Source: Candidatus Levyibacteriota bacterium (GTDB lineage Bacteria > Patescibacteriota > Microgenomatia > Levybacterales > UBA12049). From it: a stretch of 64,000 bases of DNA. Shown here one piece after another: positions 4,046-59,461 of this stretch. Position 1 is the stretch's first letter; the number at the start of each line of letters is the position of its first letter. The position numbers and the translations under genes are program-made. The notes beneath the pieces were generated by a model, which worked only from the letters and a program-made list of their open reading frames with translations, did not search any database and was not told the DNA's origin. The stretch lies in the NCBI GenBank assembly GCA_049519175.1, contig JBEKQZ010000001.1, positions 224,043 to 288,042 of the forward strand, in the 5' to 3' direction.

Positions 4046-4814
4046 AATTTCGGCCATCATCATTGCCAGAAACGAAGAGAAAATGATTGAAGAGGCTTTA
4101 GACAGTCTAGCTTTTTGCGACGAAATTATCGTTGTGGATAATGGTTCAGTAGATAAAACGAAAGAAATTGTCGAGAAAAAAGGTGCTAAAATTTATGAGA
4201 TAAGAACGAACGACTTTTCAGAACTGCGAAATTTCGGTTTGAGTAAAGCAGAAAATAACTGGATTTTATATCTGGATGCAGATGAAAGAATTGACGACGA
4301 ACTCAGAAATTCAATCAAAGATACTATTTCGACAGATACCCGATATGCGGCATTTTTCTTAAAAAGGAAAAATTTTTATTTTGGCAAACACGAATGGCCA
4401 AAGATAGAAAGATTGGAGAGGCTATTCAGAAAAGAAAAGTTAAAACAGTGGAAGGGAACCTTGCACGAAAGTCCGGTTGTTGACGGCGAAATAGGCAGGA
4501 TTGACAAAGGACTAATTTTGCATTTTACTCATCGCGACTTAGAAAGTATGCTAAGCAAAACCAATGAATGGTCGGCTAAGGAAGCACTTCTAAGATATAA
4601 CAGCGGGCATCCTAAAATGACCTGGTGGAGGTTTCCCCGGGTAATGCTGACGGCTTTCTTGGATTCTTACATTAAGCAGGGTGGATATAAAGCGGGAGTT
4701 ACTGGCGTTGTGGAAAGTATGTATCAAGCGTTTAGTATGTTTGTCACTTATGCCAAACTTTGGGAATTGCAAAGTAAAATTGAAAGTAAAAAATTAGGAA
4801 TAAAAAAGCTATGA
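4038..4814 (+). CDS. GT2 family glycosyltransferase (paralog of 2202 gene)
   Basis: MNKISAIIIARNEEKMIEEALDSLAFCDEIIVVDNGSVDKT..YLDADE. An aaggaag SD lies before the ATG at 4038. The ORF track starts at 4020. Confidence 0.75.
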   Translation: MNKISAIIIARNEEKMIEEALDSLAFCDEIIVVDNGSVDKTKEIVEKKGAKIYEIRTNDFSELRNFGLSKAENNWILYLDADERIDDELRNSIKDTISTDTRYAAFFLKRKNFYFGKHEWPKIERLERLFRKEKLKQWKGTLHESPVVDGEIGRIDKGLILHFTHRDLESMLSKTNEWSAKEALLRYNSGHPKMTWWRFPRVMLTAFLDSYIKQGGYKAGVTGVVESMYQAFSMFVTYAKLWELQSKIESKKLGIKKL

Positions 4815-7156
4815 TGAGATTAATACAACGCTTTTGGCCCGTTGTCCTAATTATCGCAGTTTGGTTTATCTTTGCGTCGCCATATTTCATTCAGCACAAA
4901 GTCCCTTTCTCGTCAACTTATCTGGTAAATTTTTTTTCTCCGTGGAATGCTTATCAGGGATTTGCGTCACCAGTCAAAAACAACGCCATGCCGGATGTAA
5001 TATCACAAATCTATCCTTGGAAAACTTTAACAATAGAAGCGCTTAAGCATTTACAAATTCCCCTGTGGAATCCTTACGGTTTTTCGGGAACACCACTACT
5101 GGCAAATTATCAATCAGCGGTTTTGTCGCCGTTTAACTTATTGTTTTTTATCCTGCCGTTTATTGACGCTTGGAGTTTATTAGTATTGTTGCAACCCTTA
5201 CTGGCTGGGATTTTTACTTATTTTTTCTTACGGACGTTAAGAATAAGTAAGGAGGGCGCCGTGATTAGTTCTTTGGGTTTTATGTTTTGCGGTTTCCTTA
5301 CAACTTGGATGGCTTATGCAACGCTTGGCTACGCCATTTTATTTTTACCTTTGGCTTTATTTGCAATCGAAAAATTTTACCAAACACAAAAGAACCGGTT
5401 TTTGGTGCTGCTTGCTTTTTCTTTGCCACTGTCTTTTTTCAGCGGACATTTTCAAATCAGTATTTATTTTTTTCTATTCGTAATCGCCTATCAACTTTTT
5501 AAATTCTGGCAGGTAAAAAACCTTAAAAATGCTCTTGTTCTTCTTTTCTATACATTCGTTGGTATTCTATTATCGCTTCCTCAGCTACTCCCTTCAGTAG
5601 AGGCATACACACAATCTTTAAGAAGTGGTATCTTTGAAAAGGCGGAAGTCATTCCTTGGGGCTATCTGTTGACTTTTCTGGCGCCCGACTTTTTAGGAAA
5701 TCCTGTCACCAGAAATGATTGGTTCGGGCACTACGCGGAATGGAATGCTTACGTTGGCGTGATTCCTCTCATTTTGGGATGCTTCGCGCTTTTTAGGGTC
5801 AGAAAAAAGGAAATTTTGTTTTTCGGGCTAATGGCACTACTGGCAATTCTTTTCTCTTTTCAAACCCCGCTTTTAGATTTACTGGTAGTTCTTAAGATCC
5901 CGGTTTTGTCAACCAGTGCTCTTAGTCGGATAATTGTATTGTTTAGCTTTTCTGTAGCTGTTTTGGCCGGGTATGGATTTGAACAATTACTTTTTGACAT
6001 TAGACAAAAAAACATCAGACCTATTTATTTACTACTTACTTTCTTCGTTATGATATTTGCGGTTTTTTGGGGAGTAATTCTTCTGAAACTAATTATACCT
6101 TTAGATAGAATAGTAATCGCTAAACAAAATCTGATTCTTCCGACGGTCTTGTTCTTCATTTTTTGGGTACTGGTCACGTCTTCATTGTTGGTGGTTCATC
6201 TAAAAAAAGGATTTTTCCTTAAAATTTTACCGCTGGCGTTAATCTTGGTTGTGGCTTTCGATTTGTTAAGGTTTTCTGGCAAATGGATGCCGTTTGACCC
6301 AAGAAGTTTAATGTATCCTAATATTCCGATTGCTCAAGAGCTAAATAAAATTTCGGGTTTTGATAGAGTGATGAGTAATATCGGCGGAGAAGGCACGCTT
6401 TATTACCGTTTACCGTCACTTGAAGGATATGACGCGGTTTACATAAAAAGATATGGAGAGTTTATTGCCTCCTTGAGTAACGGAAAGCTTGCGGAATCGG
6501 CAAGGTCGGTAGTCAGTTTTCCCAAAAACGGTTTATATACAAAACAAGCGATTAATTTATTGGGAGTAAAATATATCGTTAATAAAGTCGCTGATGGGCA
6601 TTCGGTTTGGAATTTTCCTTTTTGGACCTATCCGGCCGGCACGTTTTTAACTATTTATAATGACGGCATCTATCAAGTTTTTGAGAATAAAGATGTTTTC
6701 CCCAGAGCGTTCCTGGTCAATCAATATGCTGTTGTCAGTAATCCGCAGAAAATTTTAGACACAATGTTTGGTTTACATTTTGATTTAAGACAAGCAGTTG
6801 TTTTGGAACAAAATCCAAAGCTCAAACTGAGCGGACAAGGGACAGCACATATTAGTAGCTATGCTTCCGGAAAAATTTCAATTGAAACAAATTCCAGTGG
6901 AAATAATCTTTTATTCCTTTCGGATACTGATTATCCCGGTTGGCAAGCTTATGTCGATGGACGCCCAACATCAATTTACCGGGCCGATTTTGCTTTCCGG
7001 GCTATTTATGTTCCGTCAGGCATACATCAAGTCGAGTTTATTTATAATCCGTTGAGTTTCAATTTGAGTGTTCTAGCGACGGTTTTTGGGTTAATACTGA
7101 TGGCAGTTTTTACGGTTATTCTTAAAAGAAGCCCTATTTTTTCTCCCAAAATTTGA
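4811..7156 (+). CDS. YfhO-family polytopic membrane glycosyltransferase (GT-C fold)
   Basis: The N-terminal loop is PLWNPYGFSGTPLLANYQSAVLSPFN. The protein has many TM helices. The C-terminal beta-rich domain (DYPGWQAYVDGRPTSIY...GIHQVEFIYNP) plus a final TM anchor is typical of YfhO. Confidence 0.7.
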   Translation: MMRLIQRFWPVVLIIAVWFIFASPYFIQHKVPFSSTYLVNFFSPWNAYQGFASPVKNNAMPDVISQIYPWKTLTIEALKHLQIPLWNPYGFSGTPLLANYQSAVLSPFNLLFFILPFIDAWSLLVLLQPLLAGIFTYFFLRTLRISKEGAVISSLGFMFCGFLTTWMAYATLGYAILFLPLALFAIEKFYQTQKNRFLVLLAFSLPLSFFSGHFQISIYFFLFVIAYQLFKFWQVKNLKNALVLLFYTFVGILLSLPQLLPSVEAYTQSLRSGIFEKAEVIPWGYLLTFLAPDFLGNPVTRNDWFGHYAEWNAYVGVIPLILGCFALFRVRKKEILFFGLMALLAILFSFQTPLLDLLVVLKIPVLSTSALSRIIVLFSFSVAVLAGYGFEQLLFDIRQKNIRPIYLLLTFFVMIFAVFWGVILLKLIIPLDRIVIAKQNLILPTVLFFIFWVLVTSSLLVVHLKKGFFLKILPLALILVVAFDLLRFSGKWMPFDPRSLMYPNIPIAQELNKISGFDRVMSNIGGEGTLYYRLPSLEGYDAVYIKRYGEFIASLSNGKLAESARSVVSFPKNGLYTKQAINLLGVKYIVNKVADGHSVWNFPFWTYPAGTFLTIYNDGIYQVFENKDVFPRAFLVNQYAVVSNPQKILDTMFGLHFDLRQAVVLEQNPKLKLSGQGTAHISSYASGKISIETNSSGNNLLFLSDTDYPGWQAYVDGRPTSIYRADFAFRAIYVPSGIHQVEFIYNPLSFNLSVLATVFGLILMAVFTVILKRSPIFSPKI

Positions 7157-7436: not shown

Positions 7437-8516
7437 ATGAGAATCGGGATATTTGATCCTTATCTAGATTCACTCGTCGGTGGAGAAAAATACATGCTGA
7501 CCGCGGCCTGGTATTTATCCCAAAAACACGAAGTGTCTGTTTTTTGGGATCAAAAAGATATATTGGAAAAGGGCGCCGAAAAATTCAACCTTGATTTATC
7601 TAAAATAAAAATGACCTGTAACATTTTTTCCGCAAAAACACCTTTTTATAAAAAATATCTTGCCAGCAAAAAGTATGATGCAATCCTTTTTTTAAGCGAC
7701 GGTAGTTTGCCAATCATTGGTACTAAATTATACGTACATTTTCAATTTCCGATTGAATGGGTTAATCCAAGTAGTCTTTTAAGCAACTTTAAAAAAAAGC
7801 GTATTAAAAAAATAATTTGTAACTCATATTTCACAAAGTCTTTTATCGATAAAAAATTTAATGTAGACAGCGAAATTTTATATCCGCCGACCTATTTTAA
7901 AAAAGATTTTCCAAAAGTGGAGTTGAAGCAGAAAAAAAATCAAATTCTTAACGTCGGAAGACTTTCTGTTTTTCCCGACGGCGGGTTATTTAAAAAACAG
8001 GATTTTTTGATTAAAGCTTTTAAAGAAATCGTTGACAGCGGCGTTAAAAATTGGGAGTTAATTCTAGTAGTCAGTTATCTGGAGAGAGATAAAGAAGTTC
8101 TGGAAAATTTAAAGAAACAAATTAAAGGTTACCCGATTAAAATTCTAGCCAATATCAGTTTTGCGCAGTTGAATCAGGTTTATGCCGCAAGTAAAATTTA
8201 TTGGCACGCTTCCGGTTTTGGAGAAGACTTAAAGACTCATCCCGAAAGAGCGGAGCATTTTGGCATTACAACGATCGAAGCGATGATGAATGGAATTGTG
8301 CCGGTTGTTATCAACGCTGGCGGGCAAAAAGAAATTGTTCAAGACTCGCAAGATGGGTTTTTGTTCGAAAATGAGAAGGAGTTAATTGCCAAAACGATAA
8401 AATTAATTAAAGATGATTCTTTATGCTCAAAAATGGCGAAAAGTGCTAGAGAAAAAGCGGAAGAATTCTCAACGGATAGATTTTGCGAAAAGCTGGAAGC
8501 AATTTTTAGCAAATGA
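7437..8516 (+). CDS. GT4 family glycosyltransferase (group 1)
   Basis: The C-terminal domain has EHFGITTIEAMMNGIVPVV..GGQKEIV (the E-x7-E GT4 signature). Confidence 0.8.
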   Translation: MRIGIFDPYLDSLVGGEKYMLTAAWYLSQKHEVSVFWDQKDILEKGAEKFNLDLSKIKMTCNIFSAKTPFYKKYLASKKYDAILFLSDGSLPIIGTKLYVHFQFPIEWVNPSSLLSNFKKKRIKKIICNSYFTKSFIDKKFNVDSEILYPPTYFKKDFPKVELKQKKNQILNVGRLSVFPDGGLFKKQDFLIKAFKEIVDSGVKNWELILVVSYLERDKEVLENLKKQIKGYPIKILANISFAQLNQVYAASKIYWHASGFGEDLKTHPERAEHFGITTIEAMMNGIVPVVINAGGQKEIVQDSQDGFLFENEKELIAKTIKLIKDDSLCSKMAKSAREKAEEFSTDRFCEKLEAIFSK

Positions 8517-10783
8517 ATAAAGTAAAAATATTATTGATAGTTTGTCTTTTCCTATTGCCTTTATTTTTTTTCAAAGCGTCATTTTTGCAAGGTAGGCTGC
8601 CAATTCCCGCAGACACAATTGTCGGACTTTATTACCCTTTTCGGGATTTATATTTCAAAACAAATCCGAACGGTATTGCTTACAAAAATTTTTTGATTAC
8701 CGACCCGGTCCGGCAACAATATCCTTGGAAAAGTTTAGCAACAGGTCTAGAAAAACAATTCAATTTGCCGCTTTGGAATCCTTACAATTTTGCCGGCACG
8801 CCACTACTGGCTAACTTTCAGTCCGGTGCCTTTTATCCGCTTAATTTACTTTTTGCTATTTTGCCTTTTTCTTTTGCCTGGAGCTTACTTATCTTTTTGC
8901 AGCCACTTTTAGCCGGTATTTTTTTATTCTTTTATTTATTAAATCTAAAACTTAATAAAGCCGCCAGTTTTTTGGGAGCGCTTACTTTTTCTTTTTGCGG
9001 ATTTTCGATTGCCTGGCTGGAATGGGGAACAATTTTAAACACAGCGCTCTGGCTACCTTTAATTTTATTGGCGATAGATAAAATCGTTCAAAATTCAGAA
9101 GTCAAAATTCAGAAGTCAAAATTAGCTTGGTATTTTATTTTAGTCTTTGCGTTTATTTCTGCTTTTTTCGCCGGGCATCTGCAAACATTCTTCTATTTGT
9201 CGGTTTTTGCTGCTTTATATTTTCTTGTTCGTTGGTTCCAATGTGGAAGAAAAATAAAAATGCTTGGTAGCTTTTTTGTTTGTTTTTGCCTATTCTTTAT
9301 TTTGATTTTGCCCCAGCTTTTGCCGACTTTGCAATTTATCGCTCTTTCGGCCAGAAACGTCGATCTTGTCGGTTGGAAACAAGCCGGTTGGTTCATTCCT
9401 TGGCAGAATTTAATTCAATTTATCGCTCCGGATTTCTTTGGTAACCCGGCAACGCTTAATTATTATGGCATCTGGAATTATGGTGAATTTATCGGCTACA
9501 TCGGCATTGTGCCCCTGATTATGGCGTTGTTTGCGCTTTTTTTCAGACGGGATAAAAAAACTTTTCTTTTTGGAACAGCATTTTTCCTGTCGTTAATTTT
9601 TGCTCTGCCGACAATTTTCGCCAAAATTCCCTTTAAATTTGATTTACCATTTCTTTCAACCGCCCAACCAACACGACTATTATTCATTACGGATTTTTCC
9701 TTAAGCGTTTTAGCCGCTTTCGGATTAGACCGTTTTATCAATGCCCAAAATAAAAAGCCCATCATTATTATTCTGGGACTTTTCGGCATAATCTTTGTTG
9801 GACTTTGGTCTTTTGTCTTAATTTTCCATGGTCAGCTTTTGTTGGCAAAAGATTTGGCCGTAGCTAAGCAAAATTTAATTTTTCCGACAATACTATTTAT
9901 AGTAGCCTCACTTATCTTATTCATTGTAATTTTAAGTTCACGTAAAAAACTAATGCTAACATTAGTGGGTTTACTAATTTTAATTACGGTTGTTGACCTT
10001 TTTCGGTTTGGTTGGAAGTTTGAGCCTTTCACGAGCGAGCAATATCTTTTTTCGTCAACTGCAATAACGTCATTTTTGCAAAACCAGCCGGGAATATTCC
10101 GGGTGATGGCGACCGACTCGGAGATTTTACCGCCAAACTTTTCCATTATGTATAAACTGCAGACGCTCGACGGTTACGACCCATTATATCTACAGCGGTT
10201 CGGAGAGTTAATGGCGGCATCAGCCAGGGGAGAACCAAATATTAATCCGCCATTTGGTTTCAACCGAATTATCACACCGCAGGATCCCTTGTCCAGAACA
10301 ACGGATTTGTCGGGAGTTAAATACGTTTTAAGTTTGGAAGATATTAGAAACTCCAAGCTCAAAGAGGTTTTTACCGATGGGATTGTCAAAGTTTACGAAA
10401 ACGAAATGGCAATGCCTAGAGCGTTTTTTGTCAATACTACTTTTCTCGCCGATTCAAAACAACAAGCAATTAACGCCCTGTTTGATTTAAATTTCCCGCT
10501 TAATAAAAGGGCAGTTGTGGAGAATGTCCAAAACACAAAACTGTTTAAATCAAATTGGGATTTAGGAGACGCGCAAATCACAAGTTATAAGGACAATAAC
10601 GTTATCATTAAAACAAATAATCCTGGAGAAGGTTTTTTGGTTCTAACCGATAGCTTCTATCCAAATTGGCATGCGACAATCGACGGGCACGAGACCCAAA
10701 TTTATCTGACGGACTACAATTTTAGAGGTATAATTACTCCCAAGGGAAAACATACAATCGATTTTTACGATACACTATTTTAA
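8513..10783 (+). CDS. YfhO-family membrane glycosyltransferase, paralog of 4811 gene
   Basis: PLWNPYNFAGTPLLANFQSGAFYPLNLLF aligns with the 4811 protein. C-term is FYPNWHATIDGHETQIYLTDYNFRG..GKHTIDFYD. ATGA overlap with the upstream gene. Confidence 0.7.
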   Translation: MNKVKILLIVCLFLLPLFFFKASFLQGRLPIPADTIVGLYYPFRDLYFKTNPNGIAYKNFLITDPVRQQYPWKSLATGLEKQFNLPLWNPYNFAGTPLLANFQSGAFYPLNLLFAILPFSFAWSLLIFLQPLLAGIFLFFYLLNLKLNKAASFLGALTFSFCGFSIAWLEWGTILNTALWLPLILLAIDKIVQNSEVKIQKSKLAWYFILVFAFISAFFAGHLQTFFYLSVFAALYFLVRWFQCGRKIKMLGSFFVCFCLFFILILPQLLPTLQFIALSARNVDLVGWKQAGWFIPWQNLIQFIAPDFFGNPATLNYYGIWNYGEFIGYIGIVPLIMALFALFFRRDKKTFLFGTAFFLSLIFALPTIFAKIPFKFDLPFLSTAQPTRLLFITDFSLSVLAAFGLDRFINAQNKKPIIIILGLFGIIFVGLWSFVLIFHGQLLLAKDLAVAKQNLIFPTILFIVASLILFIVILSSRKKLMLTLVGLLILITVVDLFRFGWKFEPFTSEQYLFSSTAITSFLQNQPGIFRVMATDSEILPPNFSIMYKLQTLDGYDPLYLQRFGELMAASARGEPNINPPFGFNRIITPQDPLSRTTDLSGVKYVLSLEDIRNSKLKEVFTDGIVKVYENEMAMPRAFFVNTTFLADSKQQAINALFDLNFPLNKRAVVENVQNTKLFKSNWDLGDAQITSYKDNNVIIKTNNPGEGFLVLTDSFYPNWHATIDGHETQIYLTDYNFRGIITPKGKHTIDFYDTLF
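9088..9123 (+). repeat. 14-nt tandem duplication (tcaaaattcagaag x2.6) inside the YfhO paralog
   Basis: Directly visible: tcaaaattcagaag tcaaaattcagaag tcaaaatt. It encodes NSEVKIQKSKLA. Confidence 0.7.
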
Positions 10784-11717: not shown

Positions 11718-12418
11718 TGAAGTTATCTATAATAGTACCTGTATTTAACGAAGAGAAAACCATTCTTCAAATCTTAGAAAAATTGGATAATGCTGGTATT
11801 CCAGTGCAGTACGAAATTATTGTCGTTGACGATGGGTCGACTGACACGACGAGAACAAAATTAAAAAATATCAAAGGTGCTAAAGTTATCCTACACAAAA
11901 AAAATCAAGGGAAAGGCGCTGCGGTAAAGACGGGTATAAAAAATGCAAAAGGGGATTATATTTTAATTCAGGATGCGGATTTGGAATACAATCCCAATCA
12001 AATAAAAGACTTATTAAAACCAATTCTAGCCAAAACTGCAAAAGTCGTTTATGGAACAAGACTAAATAGAACGCCTCATCTTAGAAAAGAAGAAGCGAAG
12101 CACTTTTTTATTATTCATTATTTTGGCAATAGATTTTTAAGTTTGGTAACCAGTTTTCTCTACGGACAATGGCTAACCGATATGGAAACCTGCTATAAAT
12201 TGTTTCCCAAAATCGCGCTTAATTCCATTAAGCTTAATGCCAAAGGTTTTGAATTTGAACCGGAAATAACTTCTAAATTGTTAAAGCGGGGATATAAGAT
12301 AAAAGAAGTTTCCATTGTTGCTACTCCTAGGGGATACGATGAAGGTAAAAAATTAAATACAGTCAGAGATGGTACAAAAGCCCTGTGGTATTTAATTAAA
12401 TACAGGTTTACAGATTAA
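11717..12418 (+). CDS. GT2 glycosyltransferase, polyprenyl-phosphate sugar synthase-like (DPM1-like, no TM tail)
   Basis: LSIIVPVFNEEKTI..IIVVDDGSTDTT..QDADLEY. The TAATG overlaps the upstream stop. Confidence 0.8.
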   Translation: MKLSIIVPVFNEEKTILQILEKLDNAGIPVQYEIIVVDDGSTDTTRTKLKNIKGAKVILHKKNQGKGAAVKTGIKNAKGDYILIQDADLEYNPNQIKDLLKPILAKTAKVVYGTRLNRTPHLRKEEAKHFFIIHYFGNRFLSLVTSFLYGQWLTDMETCYKLFPKIALNSIKLNAKGFEFEPEITSKLLKRGYKIKEVSIVATPRGYDEGKKLNTVRDGTKALWYLIKYRFTD

Positions 12419-17801: not shown

Positions 17802-17805
17802 TTTT

Positions 17806-53569: not shown

Positions 53570-53612
53570 GAATAAAGCAGTATTCATACCAATAGCATTA
53601 ACGGCATTATCC

Positions 53613-54791
53613 TTGTTCTATTTTGCTGACCCTGCCATTATTGGGCCCACTCTTTACCCCTCATCAAGTGTTATGAGATTTTTCTGGGTTTATGTTCTAC
53701 TTTTTGCCGTATTAATAGATTATTACAAACGTAGCGTTTTGGATGGAAAGATTAAATGGTTTGTTTTGAGCGCTTATATATTAGGGGTGTTGTGGTCTGC
53801 CGAAAGCATGCTTTACTGTACGGCAATATACGGAACATATTTACTGAGCTCCGCGATAGCAATGTATAAGCTGAAAAAAAATACCAGTTTTAGGTTTTTG
53901 TTTATAAACCTTTTGGTGATTTTCCTTGTGTTGATTAGTACTAACATCTTCTATTTAACAACAACAAGCCATTTTCCGGATTTAAATATGTATTTTATGT
54001 ATGCTTTTGGTTACGCAAATGGCTATGGAGAGTTAGCAATAACCCCCTGGGGGATCTATTGGGCAATTATAATTGTTTTTTCCGCTATCGTTTTTGTCTT
54101 ATGGCGTTTATATTCTGCAAAGAAATACACAGAGTGGGTGGTCATATCCGTTTGCTTAGCCACATTATGGATTGTAACAAGCTACTATATTGGAAGAGCA
54201 GTTACCAATAATCTTACGGCGATTTTGCCTTTAATCTTTTACGTTTTTATTGTGATGTCGGCGACATTAATGGAAGTAAAGCTTTTTACATACAGGTTCC
54301 TTCTTACCTTGGTTTTTTTGCCGTGGATAATAGTCGGAATAATGGGCGGGATTGGTAATCCGCAATTTATCGATAAACTGCGGCAATTCAAATTCGCGGA
54401 AAATATTAACAGTAAAAGCTTTAAGCCGGATAATGAACTAAATAGCATCTTCAAATCCTTAAATATTGTTAATGGTGTTAGAATAGCTTATTACGGAGAT
54501 CCATATAATAATCCGGTTATTCCCAACGGCAAGGGAGGATATGTGGATCCTATTGCTGGCATGCCTCTTCCCATGACGCTTCTGGAAGAACCAATACCAG
54601 AGCAAAAAAGAGATATTATTGTAGAAAGGTTTTTAAATGGCATAAAAGGACCAATATATTTGATACATAGAAAAAAAGAGAGTTTAAACAGATTATCTGA
54701 TTGGAAAACATATTTTCAACAGAAGTATTCTCTCAAAAAAGAAGATACTGGAAAGAGTGAGTATGAGGTCTTTATAGTTAGTGACAAATAG
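53613..54791 (+). CDS. Membrane protein (about 7 TM) with C-terminal soluble domain; possibly the 3' part of the 52055 gene
   Basis: ORF in a different frame from the upstream gene, beginning at TTG 53613 (first ATG at 53673). Function not recognisable. Confidence 0.35.
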   Translation: MFYFADPAIIGPTLYPSSSVMRFFWVYVLLFAVLIDYYKRSVLDGKIKWFVLSAYILGVLWSAESMLYCTAIYGTYLLSSAIAMYKLKKNTSFRFLFINLLVIFLVLISTNIFYLTTTSHFPDLNMYFMYAFGYANGYGELAITPWGIYWAIIIVFSAIVFVLWRLYSAKKYTEWVVISVCLATLWIVTSYYIGRAVTNNLTAILPLIFYVFIVMSATLMEVKLFTYRFLLTLVFLPWIIVGIMGGIGNPQFIDKLRQFKFAENINSKSFKPDNELNSIFKSLNIVNGVRIAYYGDPYNNPVIPNGKGGYVDPIAGMPLPMTLLEEPIPEQKRDIIVERFLNGIKGPIYLIHRKKESLNRLSDWKTYFQQKYSLKKEDTGKSEYEVFIVSDK

Positions 54792-54828
54792 AGATTATAT
54801 ATATTATATACATAATACCTTAAATAAC

Positions 54829-56574
54829 ATGCATCGGTTTTCATATATTATTAGGACAATTATACTATTTTTTATATTACTTGTAATTACTATATTAATT
54901 AATTCTAACGTAGATAACAGTAATATTTATTATAAATTTAAGAATAACGTATCAGGTGGATTTACTACCATTACACAAAAAAATCAATGGAATGATGTTG
55001 CAAATACTAAAATACTACTGGCCCATAAAAAATTAGACTTAGATTTTACTGCACAATCTGATTACTTAGGTACCATAGCAATCCCATTTGACACGAACAA
55101 TGAGAGTATTCATGACAGAATTGTTTTCCGTATAAAAGAAGCTTCGGAAAAAAACTGGTTTCATCAAAATGTCTATGATACTAACCAAATTCAGGATAAT
55201 GTACCTTTCCCATTCGGTTTTCCTATCATTCAACATTCCAAAGGTATTCATTTTAAAGTCGAGATAGAATCCATGGATGGAAGAAAAAATAATCATTTGT
55301 CTCTAAATACTAATAATAGGTATTTCCTCGCAGAGTATATTTATTCAAAAGCAAATATTTTTCGAAGTCAAAGAGTGCTCTCTCAGTTCTTATATTTTAA
55401 AATTTATGAACACGTTTCTACCTTAACTATACCAGAATTATCGCTCATTATTTTAATATCTTTGATCATTCAGATTCTTCCCTATAAGTCATTATTTTCC
55501 ACCAAGAATAGAAAAAAGTATACAGAAAGTCCCAAGAAGAGTTTTACAAACAGAGTAGATTGGGTTGATGCAGGAAAAGGTTTGGGATTAATTCTAGTTA
55601 TATTTGGTCATTTGGTTACTATGGGTACAGTGCTTTCAAATTGGATTTTTAGTTTTCATATGCCACTTTTTTTCTTTTTATCGGGCTATGTAACTAAAAT
55701 TCCAAATAGAAGTATAAGTTACTCTTCAAAAAGAATATTTGTAAATTTGATAGTGCCATATTTTGTTTTTGTAACAGTCGGATTGCTTGTATCTTTGGCT
55801 ATACCAATATGGAGACATATAAATATTGATCAATTATTAGTTGAACTTTTTTATTCTGGTGTACCAAGTAGTATACAAGTTTCTCAATTATGGTTTCTAA
55901 TTTGTTTAGCGGTAACTCAATTTATGGCAATTGTTTTTTTCAGGTTAAATCATAAAGATATAACTATAACCATTATGTTAGTTTTTGTATTCGCTTTGAT
56001 AGCGTATTTAATTAATATATATCAAATTGGTTTTTGGGTACACGGAGTTTATTATCGTTTACCTTGGATGACAGATACAGCTTTTATGGGTTTATTTTTT
56101 TTCTTGATAGGATTTTACTCAAATTCTTTAAAGATTTTTTCCAAATTGACCTCACATTTTTCATATTCAAATATTGTTAAAATTTTGATTTTTTTAATAA
56201 TAAGTTTTTATTTTGGGACTCAATTAAACCATGGAGCTAGCTTAAGTGCAAACTTTTATGGAAATCTAACGTATTTTCTCATTGCTGCTTTAGCAGGTAT
56301 TATATTTATTATATATATATCAAGATTTTTTGAGAATAATAAACTGCTTATATATTTAGGAAAAAATACACTTCCGATATATGCAAGTCAATCATTTATT
56401 CTTTCTTTATTTCAGTACTTATTAAATTTAATCTTACATAAAAAATTTGCAATTATGGTAAATGTTCCGTTATTGTTATGCTTTTTGGGTCTAGTCTTAA
56501 TTATTGCAGTGCTTATAATAGTTTCTATTGTTTACAATAATACTATCCAAAAACTTATTTTAAAACTGCAATGA
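54829..56574 (+). CDS. Membrane O-acyltransferase (acyltransferase-3/OafA family) carrying the novel conserved N-terminal domain
   Basis: N-dom: SDYLGTIAIPFDTNNESIHDRIVFRIKEASEKNWFHQNVYDTNQIQDNVPFPFGFPII..VEIESMDGRKNNHLSLN. Acyl_transf_3 start: RVDWVDAGKGLGLILVIFGHLV, with about 10 TM. ATG at 54829. The ORF-track start at 54781 is GTG. Confidence 0.65.
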   Translation: MHRFSYIIRTIILFFILLVITILINSNVDNSNIYYKFKNNVSGGFTTITQKNQWNDVANTKILLAHKKLDLDFTAQSDYLGTIAIPFDTNNESIHDRIVFRIKEASEKNWFHQNVYDTNQIQDNVPFPFGFPIIQHSKGIHFKVEIESMDGRKNNHLSLNTNNRYFLAEYIYSKANIFRSQRVLSQFLYFKIYEHVSTLTIPELSLIILISLIIQILPYKSLFSTKNRKKYTESPKKSFTNRVDWVDAGKGLGLILVIFGHLVTMGTVLSNWIFSFHMPLFFFLSGYVTKIPNRSISYSSKRIFVNLIVPYFVFVTVGLLVSLAIPIWRHINIDQLLVELFYSGVPSSIQVSQLWFLICLAVTQFMAIVFFRLNHKDITITIMLVFVFALIAYLINIYQIGFWVHGVYYRLPWMTDTAFMGLFFFLIGFYSNSLKIFSKLTSHFSYSNIVKILIFLIISFYFGTQLNHGASLSANFYGNLTYFLIAALAGIIFIIYISRFFENNKLLIYLGKNTLPIYASQSFILSLFQYLLNLILHKKFAIMVNVPLLLCFLGLVLIIAVLIIVSIVYNNTIQKLILKLQ

Positions 56575-56631: not shown

Positions 56632-57339
56632 ATGACTGTATTTGATAAGTATGCTGACAATTATGACGAAGGACACGTCAAAGCGGTTGCGATGTCCGGA
56701 TTTAAACCCTCCCACTTCCACGAATATAAATTAAAAGAAGTTCTGGAATATCTTAAAGAGAATGGTTTGGCAAATAAAAAACTTAAATTCCTAGATTTTG
56801 GGTGCGGTACGGGAAGTAGCGTAAAGTACATAAAAAAATATTTACCCAAGGCTTCTGTTTACGGAGTCGACGTTTCCAAGGAGGAAATTAGAGTTGCCAA
56901 AGCCAATAGTAAAGGCCTTAAAGATGTGACGTTTGCCGCTTTTGACGGAACTAATATTCCCTTTACCGTTAAGTTTGACGTTATATTTATTGCCAATGTT
57001 TTCCACCATATTAGACGCGATAAACATAAAAAAGTGATGAAAAATATCTACGCTAAATTGGCAGACGACGGAATTCTGTTTATGTTTGAGCTTAATAAGC
57101 TGAATCCGTTAACTATGTTTGTGGCAATCAGGAATGATTATAAATTTGATAAAGATGCAAACCTTTTAAACCCGTTTTATGCAAAAAGGCTATTGCGAAA
57201 TGCAGGTTTTTTAAATAGCAAGGTTACTTATACGATATTCTTTCCCCAATTCCTTTCAGCGTTAATTCCACTGGAAAAATATCTCCGTTGGTTTCCTTTT
57301 GGAGCACATTACTTTTATGTTGCCAAGAAAAGCGAGTGA
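56632..57339 (+). CDS. Class I SAM-dependent methyltransferase
   Basis: KFLDFGCGTGSS (motif I) and VIFIANVFHHI. Confidence 0.7.
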   Translation: MTVFDKYADNYDEGHVKAVAMSGFKPSHFHEYKLKEVLEYLKENGLANKKLKFLDFGCGTGSSVKYIKKYLPKASVYGVDVSKEEIRVAKANSKGLKDVTFAAFDGTNIPFTVKFDVIFIANVFHHIRRDKHKKVMKNIYAKLADDGILFMFELNKLNPLTMFVAIRNDYKFDKDANLLNPFYAKRLLRNAGFLNSKVTYTIFFPQFLSALIPLEKYLRWFPFGAHYFYVAKKSE

Positions 57340-59461
57340 TATAATAGTCTTCATGCGTAAGTTTATCGCGCCCCTTTTATTACTGTCGTTAATTATAGTT
57401 GTCTTTCATTCATGGTTTAATTCCGGATTTTTAACTTCAAATGATTTTCTCTATTTTTCTAAGTCTATGATAAAAGATGCCACTTTTAATATTTATGCCT
57501 GGGATTGGCATAGTGGTCTTGATGGTTTTGCAAGATTTGTTTCTCCATATTCATGGATTTTTCCCTTTATAAATTTTCCACAAGTAGTATTTGGTAAATT
57601 GGGATTTGATTGGGCCTTTATAGAAAGGGTTGTTTACTTTTATCCACTCCTACTGCTTTTGATATTTTCTCCGATTCTTCTTGTAAAATATTTTTTCCCA
57701 AAAAATAAGTTTTATTTATTTTCCGTGCTTATTTTTGCTTTTAATACTTATTCATTATTGTTGGCCGGAGGAGAGATATTTCTTGCTCTAGCATATTCCT
57801 TGATGCCTATTGTTTTGGTTTTATTTGCTCACATGATCGATATTCGCAACAATGACGGATTTTCAAAATATAAATATTCTTTTATTGCAGGTTTAGTATT
57901 TGCCGTTCAAATAATGATAGACCCAAGGTTTGCGTTCGTAACGGTATTTTGCGTAGTTTTCTATTCGATATTTTATGCCATTTTTAAGGTTGGGAATTTT
58001 AACAAAGACAAGATAAAGAAATATGTTTATAATTTAATATTCATCTTTCTGATTCCCGGAATAATTGCAGTATTGCTTCATGCTTTTTGGATAATTCCTT
58101 CAATAATGCACGGAGGAAACCCCGTCGAAGCGCTAGGGGTTTCTTATTCGACCGGTGGTGCAGTTCAATATTTGAGTTTCGCAAAACTGGAAAATACAAT
58201 TTCGCTTTTGCACCCCAACTGGCCGGAAAATATCTTTGGGAAAGTTTATTTCATGCGGCCGGAATTTTTACTATTACCGGTTCTGGCTTTTGCGTCCCTA
58301 TTTTTTATTTCCAAAACCAAAGATCAAAAAACCAATATCTATGTGCTGTTCTTTGCGCTTTTAGGATTAGTCGGAGCATTTTTGGCCAAAGGCGCAAACG
58401 ACCCTTTCGGCGCAGTATATCTATGGGCATTTAATCATATTCCGGGGTTTATTATGTTTCGGGATCCCGCAAAATGGTATCCGCTGGTCGCGATTTCGTA
58501 TTCGATACTAATTCCCTTCACAATATGGCAAATTTATGAATTTCTAAAATCCCATTCTAAGTTTTCAATTTTCAATCCTCAATTCTCAATCAAAAACAAA
58601 TTTTTCAATTTGCCCCACTTCGCTACGGCTTCGAGGGGCAAGCAAAACCTATTTCTGTTTTTGGTTTTGGTTTATATGTTATTTCTGATTAGACCTGCGA
58701 TATTAGGGCAACTGGGCGGAATGTTTAAGGCTACTGTTATTCCGAATGATTATGTAAAGTTAGAAAAGTTTTTAGTAAATCAGCCAGATTATTTTAGAAC
58801 GCTTTGGGTGCCTTCAAAGCAAAGATTTGGTTATTACTCCAATAATCATCCGGAAATGTCCGCGCAAGTCTTATTTAATGTTACCGATAATCAAAGCTTA
58901 TTCAAAAAGCTATCGGAGGAAAATACGGAAAATCTTTTGCAAGAGGCGTCGATAAAATATGTAATTATTCCCTATGATTCCGAAAAAGAAATATTTTTAT
59001 CTGACAGGAAATACGATAATTTAATTTACTTACAAACAGTACGAGAGACTCAAAAAATACCATGGCTTAAACAAGTCGCCAGTTTTGGGAAAATAATGGT
59101 TTTTGCAGTTCCTAATCCAAAAGGCCATTTTTGGTCTCCATCAAAAACGCTTTCTTTAGCTTATGAATACATAAACCCTGTTAAGTATTCAGTCAATATA
59201 AAAAATGCTAAGAAAGGGGACATTATTGTCTTTGCAGAAAGCTATGATGTGAAATGGATTGCCGAAAATTCAACGTTTCATGTTCAAAGCTCAAAGTTCG
59301 ATAATGAATTCAACAGCTTCGTTTTACCAGCCAACGGAAACTATAATCTAAGAATCTATTATACGCCTCAGGATTACGTTAATATTGGCCTAGCAATTAG
59401 TGGGGTTACTTTATTTATTCTAGCCGGCGGCTTGTTGTTTTTAATAATTAAGAAAAAATGA
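57317..59461 (+). CDS. Large polytopic membrane protein with beta-rich C-terminal domain and terminal TM anchor (YfhO-like architecture)
   Basis: About 14 TM in the N-terminal 480 aa. The C-term YDVKWIAENSTFHVQSS..GNYNLRIYYTPQ is followed by a final TM plus KKK. The start is uncertain: ATG at 57317 or 57353, and the ORF track gives TTG at 57299. Confidence 0.45.
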   Translation: MLPRKASDIIVFMRKFIAPLLLLSLIIVVFHSWFNSGFLTSNDFLYFSKSMIKDATFNIYAWDWHSGLDGFARFVSPYSWIFPFINFPQVVFGKLGFDWAFIERVVYFYPLLLLLIFSPILLVKYFFPKNKFYLFSVLIFAFNTYSLLLAGGEIFLALAYSLMPIVLVLFAHMIDIRNNDGFSKYKYSFIAGLVFAVQIMIDPRFAFVTVFCVVFYSIFYAIFKVGNFNKDKIKKYVYNLIFIFLIPGIIAVLLHAFWIIPSIMHGGNPVEALGVSYSTGGAVQYLSFAKLENTISLLHPNWPENIFGKVYFMRPEFLLLPVLAFASLFFISKTKDQKTNIYVLFFALLGLVGAFLAKGANDPFGAVYLWAFNHIPGFIMFRDPAKWYPLVAISYSILIPFTIWQIYEFLKSHSKFSIFNPQFSIKNKFFNLPHFATASRGKQNLFLFLVLVYMLFLIRPAILGQLGGMFKATVIPNDYVKLEKFLVNQPDYFRTLWVPSKQRFGYYSNNHPEMSAQVLFNVTDNQSLFKKLSEENTENLLQEASIKYVIIPYDSEKEIFLSDRKYDNLIYLQTVRETQKIPWLKQVASFGKIMVFAVPNPKGHFWSPSKTLSLAYEYINPVKYSVNIKNAKKGDIIVFAESYDVKWIAENSTFHVQSSKFDNEFNSFVLPANGNYNLRIYYTPQDYVNIGLAISGVTLFILAGGLLFLIIKKK

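What the first reader, a model, noticed from the sequence alone, without database searches (positions are those of the whole stretch)
4811..59461. Exceptional expansion of lipid-carrier-dependent GT-C-type membrane glycosyltransferases in a single co-directional locus
Within 64 kb there are YfhO-like proteins (4811, 8513, 45742, probably 23772 and 57317) and three ArnT/PMT-like proteins with the DE loop motif (14484-16189 frameshifted, 16173, 17806). There are four paralogs of a further family with a YDQ.RD/IPLxG/YGPxW signature (13008, 19452, 20943, 22493). There are also three GT87/DUF2029-like proteins (41627, 43684, 48995) and additional polytopic proteins (50262, 52055). They are accompanied by 4 DPM1-like soluble and 1 GtrB-like membrane-anchored polyprenol-P sugar synthases and two Wzx-type flippases. 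This is the parts list for assembling lipid-linked sugars in the cytoplasm and transferring them outside the membrane. That chemistry is used for teichoic-acid, S-layer and protein O-glycosylation in monoderm bacteria. The number of distinct periplasmic-face transferases is far above what typical O-antigen, CPS or teichoic loci carry. It implies a highly elaborate or variable surface glycoconjugate.
Basis: partly seen in the sequence, partly recalled or inferred. Interest (0 to 1): 0.65.

Follow-up and report, generated by a model that had tools for sequence, protein, structure and literature searches.

The report
Giant membrane-glycosyltransferase island in Levybacteria
About half of this 64-kb stretch from a tiny-genome, uncultured Levybacteria (CPR) bacterium encodes 17 membrane enzymes that attach lipid-carried sugars to the cell surface; the array is real, is shared by the organism's relatives, and does not appear in the papers I could search.

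Summary
The window holds about 50 co-directional genes. Sixteen are GT-C-type polytopic glycosyltransferases by Pfam or profile-profile comparison: YfhO and YfhO-related x5, PMT_2/ArnT-like x8, GT87 x3. A 17th is split in two (52055+53613) and its fused ortholog models as a GT-C fold. Together they fill about 50% of the window. With them are five polyprenyl-phosphate-sugar-synthase-like GT2s (one ArnC/GtrB-like with TM helices, four soluble), two Wzx-type flippases, an AT3 acyltransferase, three methyltransferases and sugar-nucleotide genes. The source is a 580-kb Candidatus Levybacteria (Patescibacteria/CPR) contig. The island runs past both window ends, to at least 83 kb and about 23 GT-C-type genes. 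It is not chimeric.

"Exceptional" needs qualifying. All 47 full-length related loci carry 4-12 GT-C genes per 21.6 kb, so this is a lineage trait with a conserved core and variable members.

[quoted passage not shown] Donors and acceptor are inferred, not shown.

New details: a CBM-like N-terminal domain with no Pfam match, shared by two GT87s, one YfhO and the acyltransferase; and a conserved precursor cassette containing an AroB-like cyclase and a ThDP enzyme.

The parts
4811..7156 (+). YfhO-family GT-C (781 aa, about 13 TM)
   Evidence: Pfam YfhO 90.5 bits. TM scan. 35% identical to 8513. First-loop Asp62 is conserved.
8513..10783 (+). YfhO-family GT-C (756 aa)
   Evidence: Pfam YfhO 95.1 bits. 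Asp64. An ortholog at 45% identity or more is present in 19 of 47 relatives.
12990..14483 (+). PMT_2-related GT-C, 'YDQxRD' subfamily (PMT2b)
   Evidence: Pfam PMT_2 31.1 bits. Paralogous to 19452, 20943 and 22487. The family matches the ArnT-like family at hhalign 99.5%. Asp44. It is a variable member: 5 of 47 relatives at 45% identity or more.
14484..16189 (+). ArnT/PMT-like GT-C (PMT2a), disrupted in this assembly by a 19-nt deletion at 14805-14810
   Evidence: Two ORFs, 14484-14831 (carrying the NDEAG motif) and 14819-16189. An intact 574-aa gene is present in three otherwise identical assemblies. Orthologs are intact in L003, L004 and L006.
16173..17801 (+). ArnT/PMT-like GT-C (PMT2a) with the WDE motif
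   Evidence: Pfam PMT_2 57.4 bits and PMT 44.4 bits. D36-E37. Ortholog present in 47 of 47 relatives.
17785..19455 (+). ArnT/PMT-like GT-C (PMT2a) with the WDE motif
   Evidence: Pfam PMT_2 52.6 bits. D42 and E43 are invariant in 40 homologs. There is a weak profile match to ArnT 5EZM (E 0.56).
19452..20939 (+). PMT2b GT-C
   Evidence: Pfam PMT_2 scores only 19 bits, but the protein is 32% identical over its full length to 20943 (E 4e-60). Asp37.
20943..22490 (+). PMT2b GT-C
   Evidence: Pfam PMT_2 36.6 bits. Asp55.
22487..23788 (+). PMT2b GT-C
   Evidence: Pfam PMT_2 27.5 bits. Asp46.
23772..25412 (+). PTPS_related, YfhO-related GT-C
   Evidence: Pfam PF10131 26.8 bits and PMT_2 24.8 bits. 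hhalign against the YfhO family gives 99.8%. Asp33 is conserved. Ortholog present in 37 of 47 relatives.
41627..43678 (+). GT87 GT-C with an N-terminal CBM-like module (module = 41627-42361)
   Evidence: Pfam GT87 37.4 bits at residues 349-521. 64% identical to 43684. Module alignment.
43684..45732 (+). GT87 GT-C with an N-terminal CBM-like module (module = 43684-44418)
45742..49005 (+). YfhO GT-C (1087 aa) with an N-terminal CBM-like module (45742-46476) and a PgfM-like C-terminus
   Evidence: Pfam YfhO 232.9 bits. NCBIfam PgfM2 and PgfM1 partial matches at the C-terminus. Module 45% identical to that of 43684. Asp274.
48995..50278 (+). GT87 GT-C without the module (427 aa)
   Evidence: Pfam GT87 27.5 bits. 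hhalign against 43684/41627 gives 100%.
50262..52067 (+). PMT_2 GT-C (601 aa)
   Evidence: Pfam PMT_2 32.8 bits. About 11 TM helices.
52055..54791 (+). Split GT-C-like gene: 52055-53569 (weak LamG-like N-terminal domain plus TM helices) and 53613-54791; frameshift at about 53561-53566
57299..59461 (+). Divergent YfhO-related GT-C (720 aa, about 11 TM)
   Evidence: No Pfam hit above cutoff. More than 1000 homologs were found; the few among the 120 listed that carry a source name are called 'hypothetical protein'. hhalign against the YfhO family gives 99.0%, E 5e-18, over 631 columns. Asp49 is invariant.
54781..56574 (+). Acyltransferase-3 (membrane O-acyltransferase) with the same N-terminal CBM-like module (54781-55515)
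   Evidence: Pfam Acyl_transf_3 86.8 bits at residues 260-580. Module 42% identical to those of the GT87s.
59735..60670 (+). ArnC/GtrB/CsbB-type polyprenyl-phosphate glycosyltransferase (GT2 with 2 C-terminal TM helices)
   Evidence: PDB ArnC E 7e-48 over the full length, GtrB E 6e-30. NCBIfam ArnC 186 bits, PgfS 148 bits. TM helices at 235-253 and 271-289.
43..759 (+). Soluble DPM1/PpgS-like GT2 (candidate polyprenyl-P-sugar synthase)
   Evidence: Pfam GT2. Best NCBIfam matches are ArnC, PgfS, AglJ and PpgS, all below cutoff. No TM helix.
11717..12418 (+). Soluble DPM1/AglJ-like GT2
   Evidence: NCBIfam AglJ 136.8 bits, below cutoff. Best PDB hit is Dol-P-Man synthase 5MLZ, E 3.5e-17.
29688..30431 (+). 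Soluble PpgS-like GT2
   Evidence: Best NCBIfam match is PpgS, 56.9 bits, below cutoff.
39898..40668 (+). Soluble ArnC/PgfS-like GT2 at the end of the precursor cassette
   Evidence: NCBIfam. It travels with the cassette in relatives.
746..2200 (+). Wzx-type (MOP) flippase, 12 TM
   Evidence: Pfam Polysacc_synt_3 159.8 bits. TM scan.
28288..29622 (+). Wzx-type (MOP) flippase, 11 TM
   Evidence: Pfam Polysacc_synt 46.8 bits. TM scan.
2202..4814 (+). Three cytoplasmic GT2 glycosyltransferases (2202-3128, 3041-4045, 4020-4814)
   Evidence: Pfam GT2. 3041 is rhamnosyltransferase-like.
7437..8516 (+). GT4 glycosyltransferase
   Evidence: Pfam Glycos_transf_1 80.5 bits.
10785..11717 (+). GT2 glycosyltransferase
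   Evidence: Pfam GT2 97 bits. Present in 32 of 47 relatives.
12418..13011 (+). SAM methyltransferase
   Evidence: Pfam Methyltransf_11.
25426..28291 (+). GT2 (25426-26289), GalE UDP-glucose 4-epimerase (26286-27248), GT4 (27227-28291)
   Evidence: Pfam. GalE TIGR01179 scores 393.7 bits, above cutoff. Conserved in 45 of 47 (GT2) and 40 of 47 (GalE) relatives.
30512..39892 (+). Precursor cassette: G1P cytidylyltransferase-like, CDP-Glc 4,6-dehydratase-like, archaeal-type PEPC, FSA/transaldolase-like, AroB-related cyclase (TIGR04425-like), HpcH-like aldolase, ALS/YerE-like ThDP enzyme, NAD epimerase/reductase, SDR
   Evidence: Pfam and NCBIfam. The set ThDP-Epi-SDR-AroB-like-HpcH recurs in metagenome loci down to 42-45% identity.
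40678..41634 (+). FkbM-family methyltransferase
   Evidence: Pfam Methyltransf_21 87.6 bits.
56632..57339 (+). SAM methyltransferase
   Evidence: Pfam Methyltransf_25, _12 and _11.
60667..63379 (+). GT4 N-domain-only gene (60667-61239), Fic+HTH gene (61276-62253), GT4 (62258-63379)
   Evidence: Pfam. In relative L167 the 190-aa GT4-N gene directly abuts the GT4 gene, with no Fic gene between them.

Best explanation
The window is the central 64 kb of an envelope-glycan assembly island of at least 83 kb in a Candidatus Levybacteria (Patescibacteria/CPR) genome. It works as a greatly multiplied 'multi-component transmembrane glycosylation system'.

Proposed steps:
1. Cytoplasmic GT2 enzymes load several different sugars from nucleotide sugars onto polyprenyl phosphate. 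One is ArnC/GtrB-like and membrane-anchored; four are soluble and DPM1/PpgS/AglJ-like. The nucleotide sugars come from GalE, a CDP-hexose branch and an unusual AroB-like/ThDP cassette.
2. Other GT2 and GT4 enzymes probably build a lipid-linked oligosaccharide.
3. The two Wzx-type proteins are the only flippase candidates.
4. On the outer face of the membrane, 17 GT-C-fold transferases in the window (about 23 GT-C-type genes in the island) each add one kind of sugar or linkage. They belong to the YfhO-related, PMT_2/ArnT-like, GT87 and one orphan family, and the five families checked each keep a conserved Asp in the first outer loop.
5. An AT3 acyltransferase acylates the product, and three methyltransferases probably methylate a sugar or precursor, at a step and on a membrane face I cannot tell.

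Two GT87s, one YfhO and the acyltransferase share an outward-facing CBM-like beta-sandwich. For that reason the acceptor is most likely a polysaccharide or lipoglycan of the cell envelope, comparable in logic to mycobacterial LM/LAM/arabinogalactan assembly, rather than only proteins.

Shown: family membership, membrane topology (by hydropathy), conserved catalytic-type residues, conservation and synteny across the lineage.
Inferred: donor sugars, flipping, acceptor, and that all copies are active.
For: Family assignments.
Polytopic topology.
Conserved first-loop Asp (DE in the ArnT-like set) in the five families checked and in each of their window paralogs.
Orthologs at 50-84% identity in conserved order in other Levybacteria, so the paralogs are old and maintained.
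Tandem GT-C arrays in 47 of 47 full-length related loci.
Island extends both ways with more GT-C genes (MptA_B, PMT_2, YfhO, 2x PTPS_related upstream; a Wzy_C-faint 1024-aa protein and PMT downstream).
Published precedent for soluble GT-A + Wzx-type flippase + GT-C systems, and for CBMs on GT-C enzymes binding the acceptor polymer: PMC8035078.
The precursor cassette is linked to polyprenyl-P-type GT2 and GT87 genes in many metagenome loci.
Against: No enzyme activity, donor or acceptor is shown.
No GtrA-family flippase, no initiating phosphoglycosyltransferase and no acceptor gene (S-layer, teichoic-acid synthase) lies in the window or its 10-kb flanks.
PDB sequence matches for the GT-C proteins are insignificant.
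The CBM-like assignment rests on fold similarity at 6-10% identity, and beta-sandwiches are common.
Two GT-C genes are disrupted in this sequence.
Several Pfam scores are near or below threshold (19452, 14819, 57299).
Confidence: 0.6

Rival explanations
1. The GT-C array mainly O-glycosylates surface proteins (S-layer, pili, adhesins), as do PMT/GT39 mannosyltransferases and the Streptococcus mutans Pgf system. Each paralog would serve a different protein or sugar.
For: The ArnT/PMT-like set hits Pfam PMT and PMT_2 and keeps the PMT-type DE motif. The YfhO proteins match PgfM1 and PgfM2, and 59735 matches PgfS; a GalE gene is present, as is PgfE in Pgf.
Against: The Pgf matches are partial and far below cutoff (76 bits against 1500). 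Four membrane enzymes carry a CBM-like, not protein-binding-like, outer domain. GT87 and MptA_B-type enzymes are known as polymer-building mannosyltransferases (own knowledge). No target protein gene lies in the locus.
Confidence: 0.2
2. It is a decoration system for a teichoic-acid-like polymer, of the CsbB/GtcA/YfhO type found in Firmicutes, with many alternative side-chain sugars.
For: YfhO-family proteins and a CsbB/GtrB-like GT2 are present. The scheme is as reviewed in PMC8035078 and PMC5836110.
Against: No GtrA/GtcA flippase, no TagF/LtaS-type polymer synthase and no D-alanylation genes lie in the window or its flanks. The number and diversity of GT-C families (PMT_2, GT87, MptA_B) goes well beyond side-chain decoration.
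Confidence: 0.1
3. Many of the paralogs are not active transferases. They would be decaying duplicates or membrane proteins with other roles, so the apparent richness overstates the chemistry.
For: Two genes are disrupted in this sequence. Several Pfam scores are marginal. Some paralogs are patchy among relatives.
Against: Every paralog checked keeps the first-loop Asp. Orthologs are conserved at 50-84% identity in order across species. One of the two disruptions is absent from three other assemblies.
Confidence: 0.07
4. The locus is a chimeric mis-assembly of several genomes.
For: GC is slightly lower (0.31-0.33) and GC skew is negative at 42-48 kb.
Against: Identical proteins and 100%-identical DNA (apart from one 19-nt gap) occur in independent assemblies covering window positions from before 1 to about 3.7 kb, about 12.2-21.8 kb, and from just before 45.7 kb to about 58.6 kb. 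Relatives bridge the stretches 8-29 kb and 27-43 kb in the same gene order. The contig continues with the same kind of genes on both sides.
Confidence: 0.02

Closest known systems
Multi-component (three-component) transmembrane glycosylation systems: GtrA/GtrB/GtrX, CsbB/GtcA/YfhO, GacI/J/K/L (PMC8035078, PMC5836110)
   Same: A GT-A-fold GT2 makes a C55-P-sugar. 59735 aligns over its full length to ArnC and GtrB. The soluble-GT2 variant with a Wzx-type flippase has the GacI/GacK precedent. YfhO-family and other GT-C enzymes transfer the sugar outside the membrane.
   Different: Known systems have one GT-C per system and a few per genome. Here there are 17 in 64 kb, about 23 GT-C-type genes in the island, and five synthase-like GT2s. 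No GtrA-family protein is present. No GacJ-like partner was identified; a 75-aa 3-TM ORF at 59458-59685 has no family match.
Mycobacterial/corynebacterial envelope GT-C set (PimE, Rv2181, MptA/B/C, Emb, Aft, Pmt, with Ppm1 and PpgS) that builds LM/LAM and arabinogalactan from polyprenyl-P-sugars
   Same: Many different GT-C enzymes act in series on a polysaccharide outside the membrane. GT87 family hits occur in the window, and an MptA_B_family hit lies just upstream. There is a PpgS-like GT2. CBMs on a GT-C enzyme for acceptor binding have the AftD precedent.
   Different: Here the genes sit in one co-directional island in a genome of roughly 0.6-1 Mb. PMT_2 and YfhO-type families dominate. 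There is no evidence for a PIM anchor, arabinose donors or mycolate-type envelope. Sequence similarity is at family level only.
ArnC/ArnT lipid A aminoarabinose modification
   Same: 59735 is closest to ArnC structures (E 7e-48). The PMT2a family matches PMT_2 and, weakly, ArnT 5EZM.
   Different: There are no ArnA/B/D genes. As far as I know, CPR bacteria lack lipid A. The NCBIfam ArnC score is below cutoff (186 against 529).
Streptococcus mutans Pgf protein-glycosylation machinery (PgfS, PgfM1, PgfE, PgfM2)
   Same: A GT2 (PgfS-like, 148 bits), YfhO-type proteins with PgfM-like C-termini, and a GalE-type epimerase.
   Different: All scores are far below the equivalog cutoffs. No adhesin targets are present. 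The number of transferases is much larger.
Protein O-mannosyltransferases (GT39, PMT)
   Same: 16173 hits Pfam PMT. The DE motif in loop 1 is invariant.
   Different: There are no MIR domains. The proteins are about 550 aa and ArnT-like in architecture. The acceptor is unknown.

Membership tests
GT-C fold glycosyltransferase superfamily | Polytopic membrane protein (8 or more TM helices) with the N-terminal half in the membrane | tested here: met
   7-14 predicted TM helices for all 17 candidates (hydropathy scan). The lowest counts, 6-8, belong to the truncated 14819 ORF and the two halves of the split 52055/53613 gene.
GT-C fold glycosyltransferase superfamily | Conserved acidic residue (Asp or Glu) in the first extracytoplasmic loop | tested here: met
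   At least 90% conserved in each family: D42-E43 (PMT2a), D44 (PMT2b), D62 (YfhO), D33 (PTPS_related), D49 (57299 family). Present in each window paralog checked. Not examined for the GT87s, 50262 or 52055/53613.
GT-C fold glycosyltransferase superfamily | Match to a curated GT-C family model above threshold | tested here: met
   13 proteins score above a Pfam gathering score. 19452, 14819 and 57299 do not, but they are tied to the families by BLAST or hhalign.
GT-C fold glycosyltransferase superfamily | GT-C three-dimensional fold | tested here: inconclusive
   [not shown]
GT-C fold glycosyltransferase superfamily | Uses a polyprenyl-phosphate-linked sugar donor | not testable with these tools
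   Needs biochemistry.
YfhO (PF09586) | Match to the Pfam YfhO model above the gathering score | tested here: met
   Met for 4811, 8513 and 45742 (90-233 bits).
YfhO (PF09586), for 23772 and 57299 | Match to the Pfam YfhO model above the gathering score | tested here: not met
   Pfam gives no YfhO hit. Profile-profile comparison shows homology (99.8% and 99.0%). I file them as YfhO-related, not as members.
PMT_2 / ArnT-PMT-like (GT39/GT83-type) | Pfam PMT_2 or PMT match and a DE or D motif in loop 1 | tested here: met
   CAZy family numbers were not assigned because no CAZy models were available.
GT87 (PF09594) | Match to the Pfam GT87 model above the gathering score (25 bits) | tested here: met
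   37.4, 42.4 and 27.5 bits. The catalytic residues were not checked.
ArnC/GtrB/CsbB-type polyprenyl-phosphate glycosyltransferase | A GT2 catalytic domain plus C-terminal TM helices, with full-length similarity to solved members | tested here: met
   59735 matches ArnC 9BHC at E 7e-48 (residues 2-291 against 10-297) and GtrB 5EKP at E 6e-30. It has 2 TM helices. It is below the NCBIfam ArnC equivalog cutoff, so it is not ArnC itself.
DPM1/PpgS-like soluble polyprenyl-P-sugar synthase | A short GT2 whose best matches are Dol-P or polyprenyl-P sugar synthases | tested here: inconclusive
   The best NCBIfam and PDB matches are AglJ, PpgS, ArnC and DPMS, but all are below cutoffs and mostly cover the generic GT2 core.
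Wzx / MOP flippase | Polysacc_synt-type Pfam match and about 12 TM helices | tested here: met
   746-2200 scores 159.8 bits with 12 TM helices. 28288-29622 scores 46.8 bits with 11 TM helices.
Multi-component transmembrane glycosylation system | Co-located GT-A lipid-sugar synthase, flippase and GT-C transferase | tested here: met
   All three classes lie in one co-directional locus. The flippase is Wzx-type, not GtrA-type, as in the GacK precedent.
Multi-component transmembrane glycosylation system | A defined acceptor polymer or protein | not testable with these tools
   No acceptor gene was identified in the window or its flanks.

The most novel reading that the evidence does not exclude
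Levybacteria, despite genomes of roughly 0.6-1 Mb, assemble a major envelope heteropolysaccharide or lipoglycan almost entirely on the outer face of the membrane. About two dozen GT-C enzymes do this in series, a CPR counterpart of mycobacterial LAM/arabinogalactan assembly. The polymer would include an undescribed branched-chain or carbocyclic sugar made by the conserved AroB-like/ThDP cassette. The enzymes would be guided to the polymer by a previously unclassified, widespread CBM-like N-terminal domain family. Such a glycan coat could be central to how these episymbionts attach to or evade hosts and phages.
Probability: 0.25. Interest if true: 0.8.

Novelty: new variant of a known kind. Interest (0 to 1): 0.55.

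Why it matters
Little is known about what CPR/Patescibacteria cell envelopes are made of, yet these cells live attached to other cells and their surface is where that contact happens. This genome spends at least 83 kb of a 580-kb contig (about 14%) on glycan assembly. Its density of GT-C transferases exceeds what I know from any described locus (that comparison is from memory, not computed here).

The trait is conserved across Levybacteria. This points to a large, structured surface glycan as a core feature of the lineage.

The finding also supplies concrete targets:
- five candidate lipid-sugar synthases that could be tested in E. coli membranes;
- a new CBM-like domain family (about 1000 clusters) fused to membrane glycan-modifying enzymes;
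- a conserved cassette for an unknown activated sugar.

If instead the glycan is ordinary decoration, the locus is still a rich source of diverse GT-C sequences for structure-function work.

Tried and rejected
- Single-sequence and profile searches of the GT-C proteins against PDB sequences gave nothing significant (ArnT only at E 0.56).
- hhalign of the 52055/53613 family against the window's GT-C families found no relation. A structure model was needed instead.
- Exact-sequence look-ups of the PEPC protein and of the 115-aa N-terminal fragment found no record.
- Pfam at E up to 1 on the 75-aa membrane ORF at 59458-59685, and on the 4-TM tails of the common roughly 340-aa module proteins, gave only noise. 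No GtrA, GacJ or ArnE/F-type assignment was possible.
- The AFDB Foldseek library was not available.
- Eight literature searches combining CPR, Patescibacteria, Levybacteria or Microgenomates with GT-C, YfhO, ArnT, GT39/83/87 or mannosyltransferase found no paper describing this expansion. TIGR04425 appears in no paper. The one Levybacteria hit (acarbose paper) concerns an unrelated AcbI homolog.
- Rejected: chimeric assembly (see rivals).
- Rejected: the IS1 transposase hit in 41627 (19.7 bits, below cutoff, inside the membrane region).
- Rejected: the 168-aa antisense ORF at 40119-40625, which lies inside a well-supported GT2 gene.

Full report
**What is in the window.** All ORFs of at least 150 aa but one lie on the + strand, about 50 in all, with only five intergenic gaps longer than 60 nt. 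GC is even at 0.31-0.39.

Pfam places the large membrane proteins in GT-C glycosyltransferase families.
- YfhO: 4811, 8513 and 45742 (90, 95 and 233 bits).
- PMT_2: 12990, 16173 (also PMT), 17785, 20943, 22487 and 50262 score above the gathering cutoff. 19452 and the truncated 14819 score below it.
- PTPS_related (plus PMT_2 just below cutoff): 23772.
- GT87: 41627, 43684 and 48995.

A hydropathy scan predicts 7-14 TM helices for each, the lowest count belonging to the truncated 14819 ORF.

All-against-all BLAST gives these paralog groups:
- {4811, 8513, (45742)};
- {14819, 16173, 17785};
- {12990, 19452, 20943, 22487};
- {41627, 43684, 48995}.

Profile-profile comparison used alignments built from the window and from related loci.
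- 23772 is homologous to the YfhO family (99.8%).
- The Pfam-less 57299 family is also YfhO-related (99.0%, E 5e-18, 631 columns). It has more than 1000 homologs, and the few listed ones that carry a source name are called 'hypothetical protein'.

The five families checked each keep an Asp (DE in the ArnT-like set) at 90% or more in the loop after TM1. Each window paralog of those families has it.

These 16 genes cover 46% of the window.

**Two disrupted genes.** The first is 14484-16189, which is split into 14484-14831 and 14819-16189.
- Three other assemblies are 100% identical over 6-9.6 kb except for one 19-nt gap: Logan SRR7028199, ENA ERZ27250043 and JGI 3300017931.
- They read TTTTTA-CTAGGCAGGAAAC-TTTTTA where the window has a single TTTTTA (14805-14810).
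- They encode an intact 574-aa PMT_2 protein.
- So this frameshift is either an assembly error or a minority deletion variant.

The second is 52055-53569 plus 53613-54791.
- The two ORFs are fused in relatives: P0271 (878 aa; 77% and 74% identity), P0273, P0274 and P0275.
- The break lies in a TA/TG stretch at about 53561-53566.
- The same split is present in the Logan assembly (L002).
- This family has no sequence link to the other GT-C families.
- I count it as a 17th, split, GT-C-like gene at moderate confidence.

**The cytoplasmic and flipping parts.** Five small GT2s (43, 11717, 29688, 39898, 59735) resemble each other. Their best matches are polyprenyl-phosphate glycosyltransferases (ArnC, PgfS, AglJ, PpgS, Dol-P-hexose transferase), all below the equivalog cutoffs.
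- 59735 has two C-terminal TM helices. It aligns end to end with solved ArnC (E 7e-48) and GtrB (E 6e-30).
- The other four have no TM helix. The best PDB hit of 11717 is Dol-P-Man synthase.

746-2200 and 28288-29622 are Wzx-type Polysacc_synt proteins with 12 and 11 TM helices. No GtrA-family protein, initiating phosphoglycosyltransferase or acceptor gene was found in the window or its flanks.

The rest of the window comprises:
- five further GT2s and four GT4-type genes;
- three methyltransferases, one of the FkbM family;
- an AT3 acyltransferase;
- GalE (394 bits, above cutoff);
- a nine-gene precursor block.

**Source and integrity.** The 1087-aa YfhO protein is encoded on ENA contig ERZ27250144:k141_64433 (579,907 bp). 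The window corresponds to about 270.8-334.8 kb of that contig.

A scan of GTDB species representatives with the ArnT-like pair gave 380 relatives. The best 80 are overwhelmingly Candidatus Levybacteria/Levyibacteriota or unnamed Patescibacteria. The closest are SMAG_U14562 (81%) and SMAG_U14563 (75%).

Flank look-ups show the island continues in both directions.
- Upstream: an MptA_B_family protein, a PMT_2, an 816-aa YfhO, a 553-aa unknown and two PTPS_related proteins.
- Downstream: a hexapeptide acyltransferase, GT2s, a 1024-aa protein with a faint Wzy_C hit, a PMT/PMT_2 and several GT4s.
- That makes at least 83 kb (about 14% of the contig) and about 23 GT-C-type genes.

Chimerism is excluded as far as sequence alone allows, by independent assemblies and by synteny in relatives.

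**Is it exceptional?** Within the lineage it is not. In the 47 related loci with full 10-kb flanks, ORFs matching the window's GT-C families number 4-12 per 21.6 kb, median 8. The equivalent stretch of the window has 9.

Gene order is conserved: 14484-ortholog, 16173, 17785, 19452, 20943/22487, 23772, GT2, GalE, with 50-84% identity.

Conservation across the 47 loci:
- Core: 16173 and 17785 in 47, GT2 25426 in 45, GalE in 40, 23772 in 37.
- Patchy, counting matches at 45% identity or more: 12990 in 5, 14819 in 8, 20943 in 13, 19452 in 16, 22487 and 8513 in 19.
- Relatives also carry extra copies that the window lacks.

So the paralogs are old and maintained, with a variable fringe. Compared with ordinary O-antigen, capsule or teichoic-acid loci, and even with Mycobacterium tuberculosis, the density is extraordinary. 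M. tuberculosis has, from my memory, on the order of 15-20 GT-C genes scattered over 4.4 Mb. That comparison was not computed here.

Eight full-text searches found no paper describing GT-C expansion in CPR.

**A shared outer domain.** Residues of about 20-236 of 41627, 43684 (both GT87), 45742 (YfhO) and 54781 (AT3) are 38-46% identical to one another (41627 and 43684, full-length paralogs, more so) and have no Pfam match.
- A profile search of 1.84 billion representatives found 1058 clusters (810 at E<1e-10). In the 150 best, the match almost always starts within about 60 residues of the N-terminus.
- The most common architecture is TM + about 170 aa + 4-5 TM (about 340 aa, no Pfam match).
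- Of 90 members scanned, six also hit PMT_2, two GT87, two AT3 and one YfhO.
- P0013 joins the module to the 52055-type membrane domain.
- AlphaFold (104-row alignment, pLDDT 91, pTM 0.84) gives a TM helix, an eight-strand beta-sandwich (residues 60-186) and two helices.
- The K/R-rich N-terminus and the position between TM1 and the next helix put the domain outside the cell. This is an inference.
- A published review notes that large GT-C enzymes such as AftD carry extracellular CBMs thought to bind the acceptor polymer (PMC8035078).

The shared module therefore suggests that these four enzymes act on the same glycan.

**Mechanism proposed.** The locus fits the published 'multi-component transmembrane glycosylation system'. 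That scheme has a GT-A enzyme making a C55-P-sugar, a GtrA- or Wzx-type flippase, and a GT-C enzyme transferring the sugar outside. It includes the GacI/J/K/L variant with a soluble GT-A and a Wzx-type flippase (PMC8035078; PMC5836110).

Here the scheme is multiplied: five candidate synthases, two flippase candidates and 17 or more transferases from at least four families, plus methylation and acylation. The number of distinct, conserved GT-C enzymes, the GT87 and MptA_B-type members and the CBM-like domains make polymer building or decoration (LM/LAM-like logic) more likely than protein O-glycosylation alone. The latter is not excluded, given the DE-motif PMT-like set and the Pgf-like partial matches.

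Family membership, topology, motif conservation and synteny are shown. Donors, flipping, acceptor and activity are inferred.

**Side finding.** Genes 30512-39892 encode, in order:
- a G1P cytidylyltransferase-like protein (275 bits, cutoff 300);
- a CDP-glucose 4,6-dehydratase-like protein;
- an archaeal-type PEP carboxylase (459 bits);
- an FSA/transaldolase-like protein;
- an AroB-related cyclase (TIGR04425, 380 bits against a cutoff of 400);
- an HpcH-like aldolase;
- an acetolactate-synthase/YerE-like ThDP enzyme;
- an epimerase/reductase;
- an SDR.

A metagenome scan with the cyclase gave 74 loci. In most contigs of 6 kb or more, the set ThDP-(Epi)-SDR-AroB-like-HpcH recurs, down to 42-45% identity. 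It usually travels with the nucleotidyltransferase, a dehydratase-like gene and a GtrB/ArnC-like GT2, and sometimes with a GT87.

This looks like an undescribed pathway to an activated unusual sugar that feeds the GT-C system. Its product is unknown.

**Verdict.** The feature is lineage-wide rather than peculiar to this window, and the acceptor is unknown. It is a new variant (in scale and composition) of a known kind of system, with a new domain family and a new cassette attached. Interest 0.55.

Noticed in passing
window 30512-39892 (also L088-L161): A conserved precursor cassette sits inside the glycan island. It comprises an NTP-transferase, a dehydratase-like gene, an AroB-related cyclase (TIGR04425-like), an HpcH-like aldolase, an ALS/YerE-like ThDP enzyme, an epimerase and an SDR. 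The core set recurs in dozens of metagenome contigs next to GtrB-like GT2 and sometimes GT87 genes. The product is unknown; it may be a branched-chain or carbocyclic sugar.
   Followed up: partly
[not shown]
   Followed up: yes
window 14805-14810: A 19-nt deletion between TTTTTA direct repeats disrupts a PMT_2 gene only in this assembly. Three other assemblies of the same population are intact.
   Followed up: yes
window 53561-53612: A frameshift in a TA/TG stretch splits a GT-C-like gene into 52055-53569 and 53613-54791. The gene is fused in relatives. The same split is seen in an independent assembly, so it is probably real.
   Followed up: yes
window 60667-63379; L167 13227-14932: A 190-aa gene encoding only the GT4 N-domain is conserved as a separate gene directly upstream of a full GT4 in a relative. 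In the window a Fic + DeoR-HTH gene (61276-62253) sits between the two.
   Followed up: partly
window 32205-33725: An archaeal-type PEP carboxylase (TIGR02751, 459 bits) and an FSA/transaldolase-like gene are embedded in the glycan locus. Among the cassette loci they appear only in the closer relatives (L088-L090, L113, L152).
   Followed up: partly
window 59458-59685: A 75-aa ORF with about 3 hydrophobic helices lies just upstream of the ArnC/GtrB-like GT2. It was called as a gene in the source contig. It has no family match. It could be a small membrane partner of the GacJ type, but this is untested.
   Followed up: partly
window 42000-48000: This stretch has the lowest GC (0.31-0.33) and the only negative GC skew in the window. 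It coincides with the most similar paralog pair (41627 and 43684, 64% identical), which suggests a relatively recent duplication.
   Followed up: no
L005, L008, L012 and many others: Many related MAG records are titled 'uncultured Gammaproteobacteria bacterium', and some 'Pacearchaeota' or 'Limnocylindrales'. They carry Levybacteria-type loci, so the titles look like placeholder or mis-binned labels.
   Followed up: no
window 52055-52714: The N-terminal outer domain of 52055 differs from the shared CBM-like module. It gives only weak Laminin_G_3/ConA-like hits (21 bits) and was poorly modelled (pLDDT<50). Relative P0013 has the CBM-like module in its place, an apparent domain swap.
   Followed up: partly
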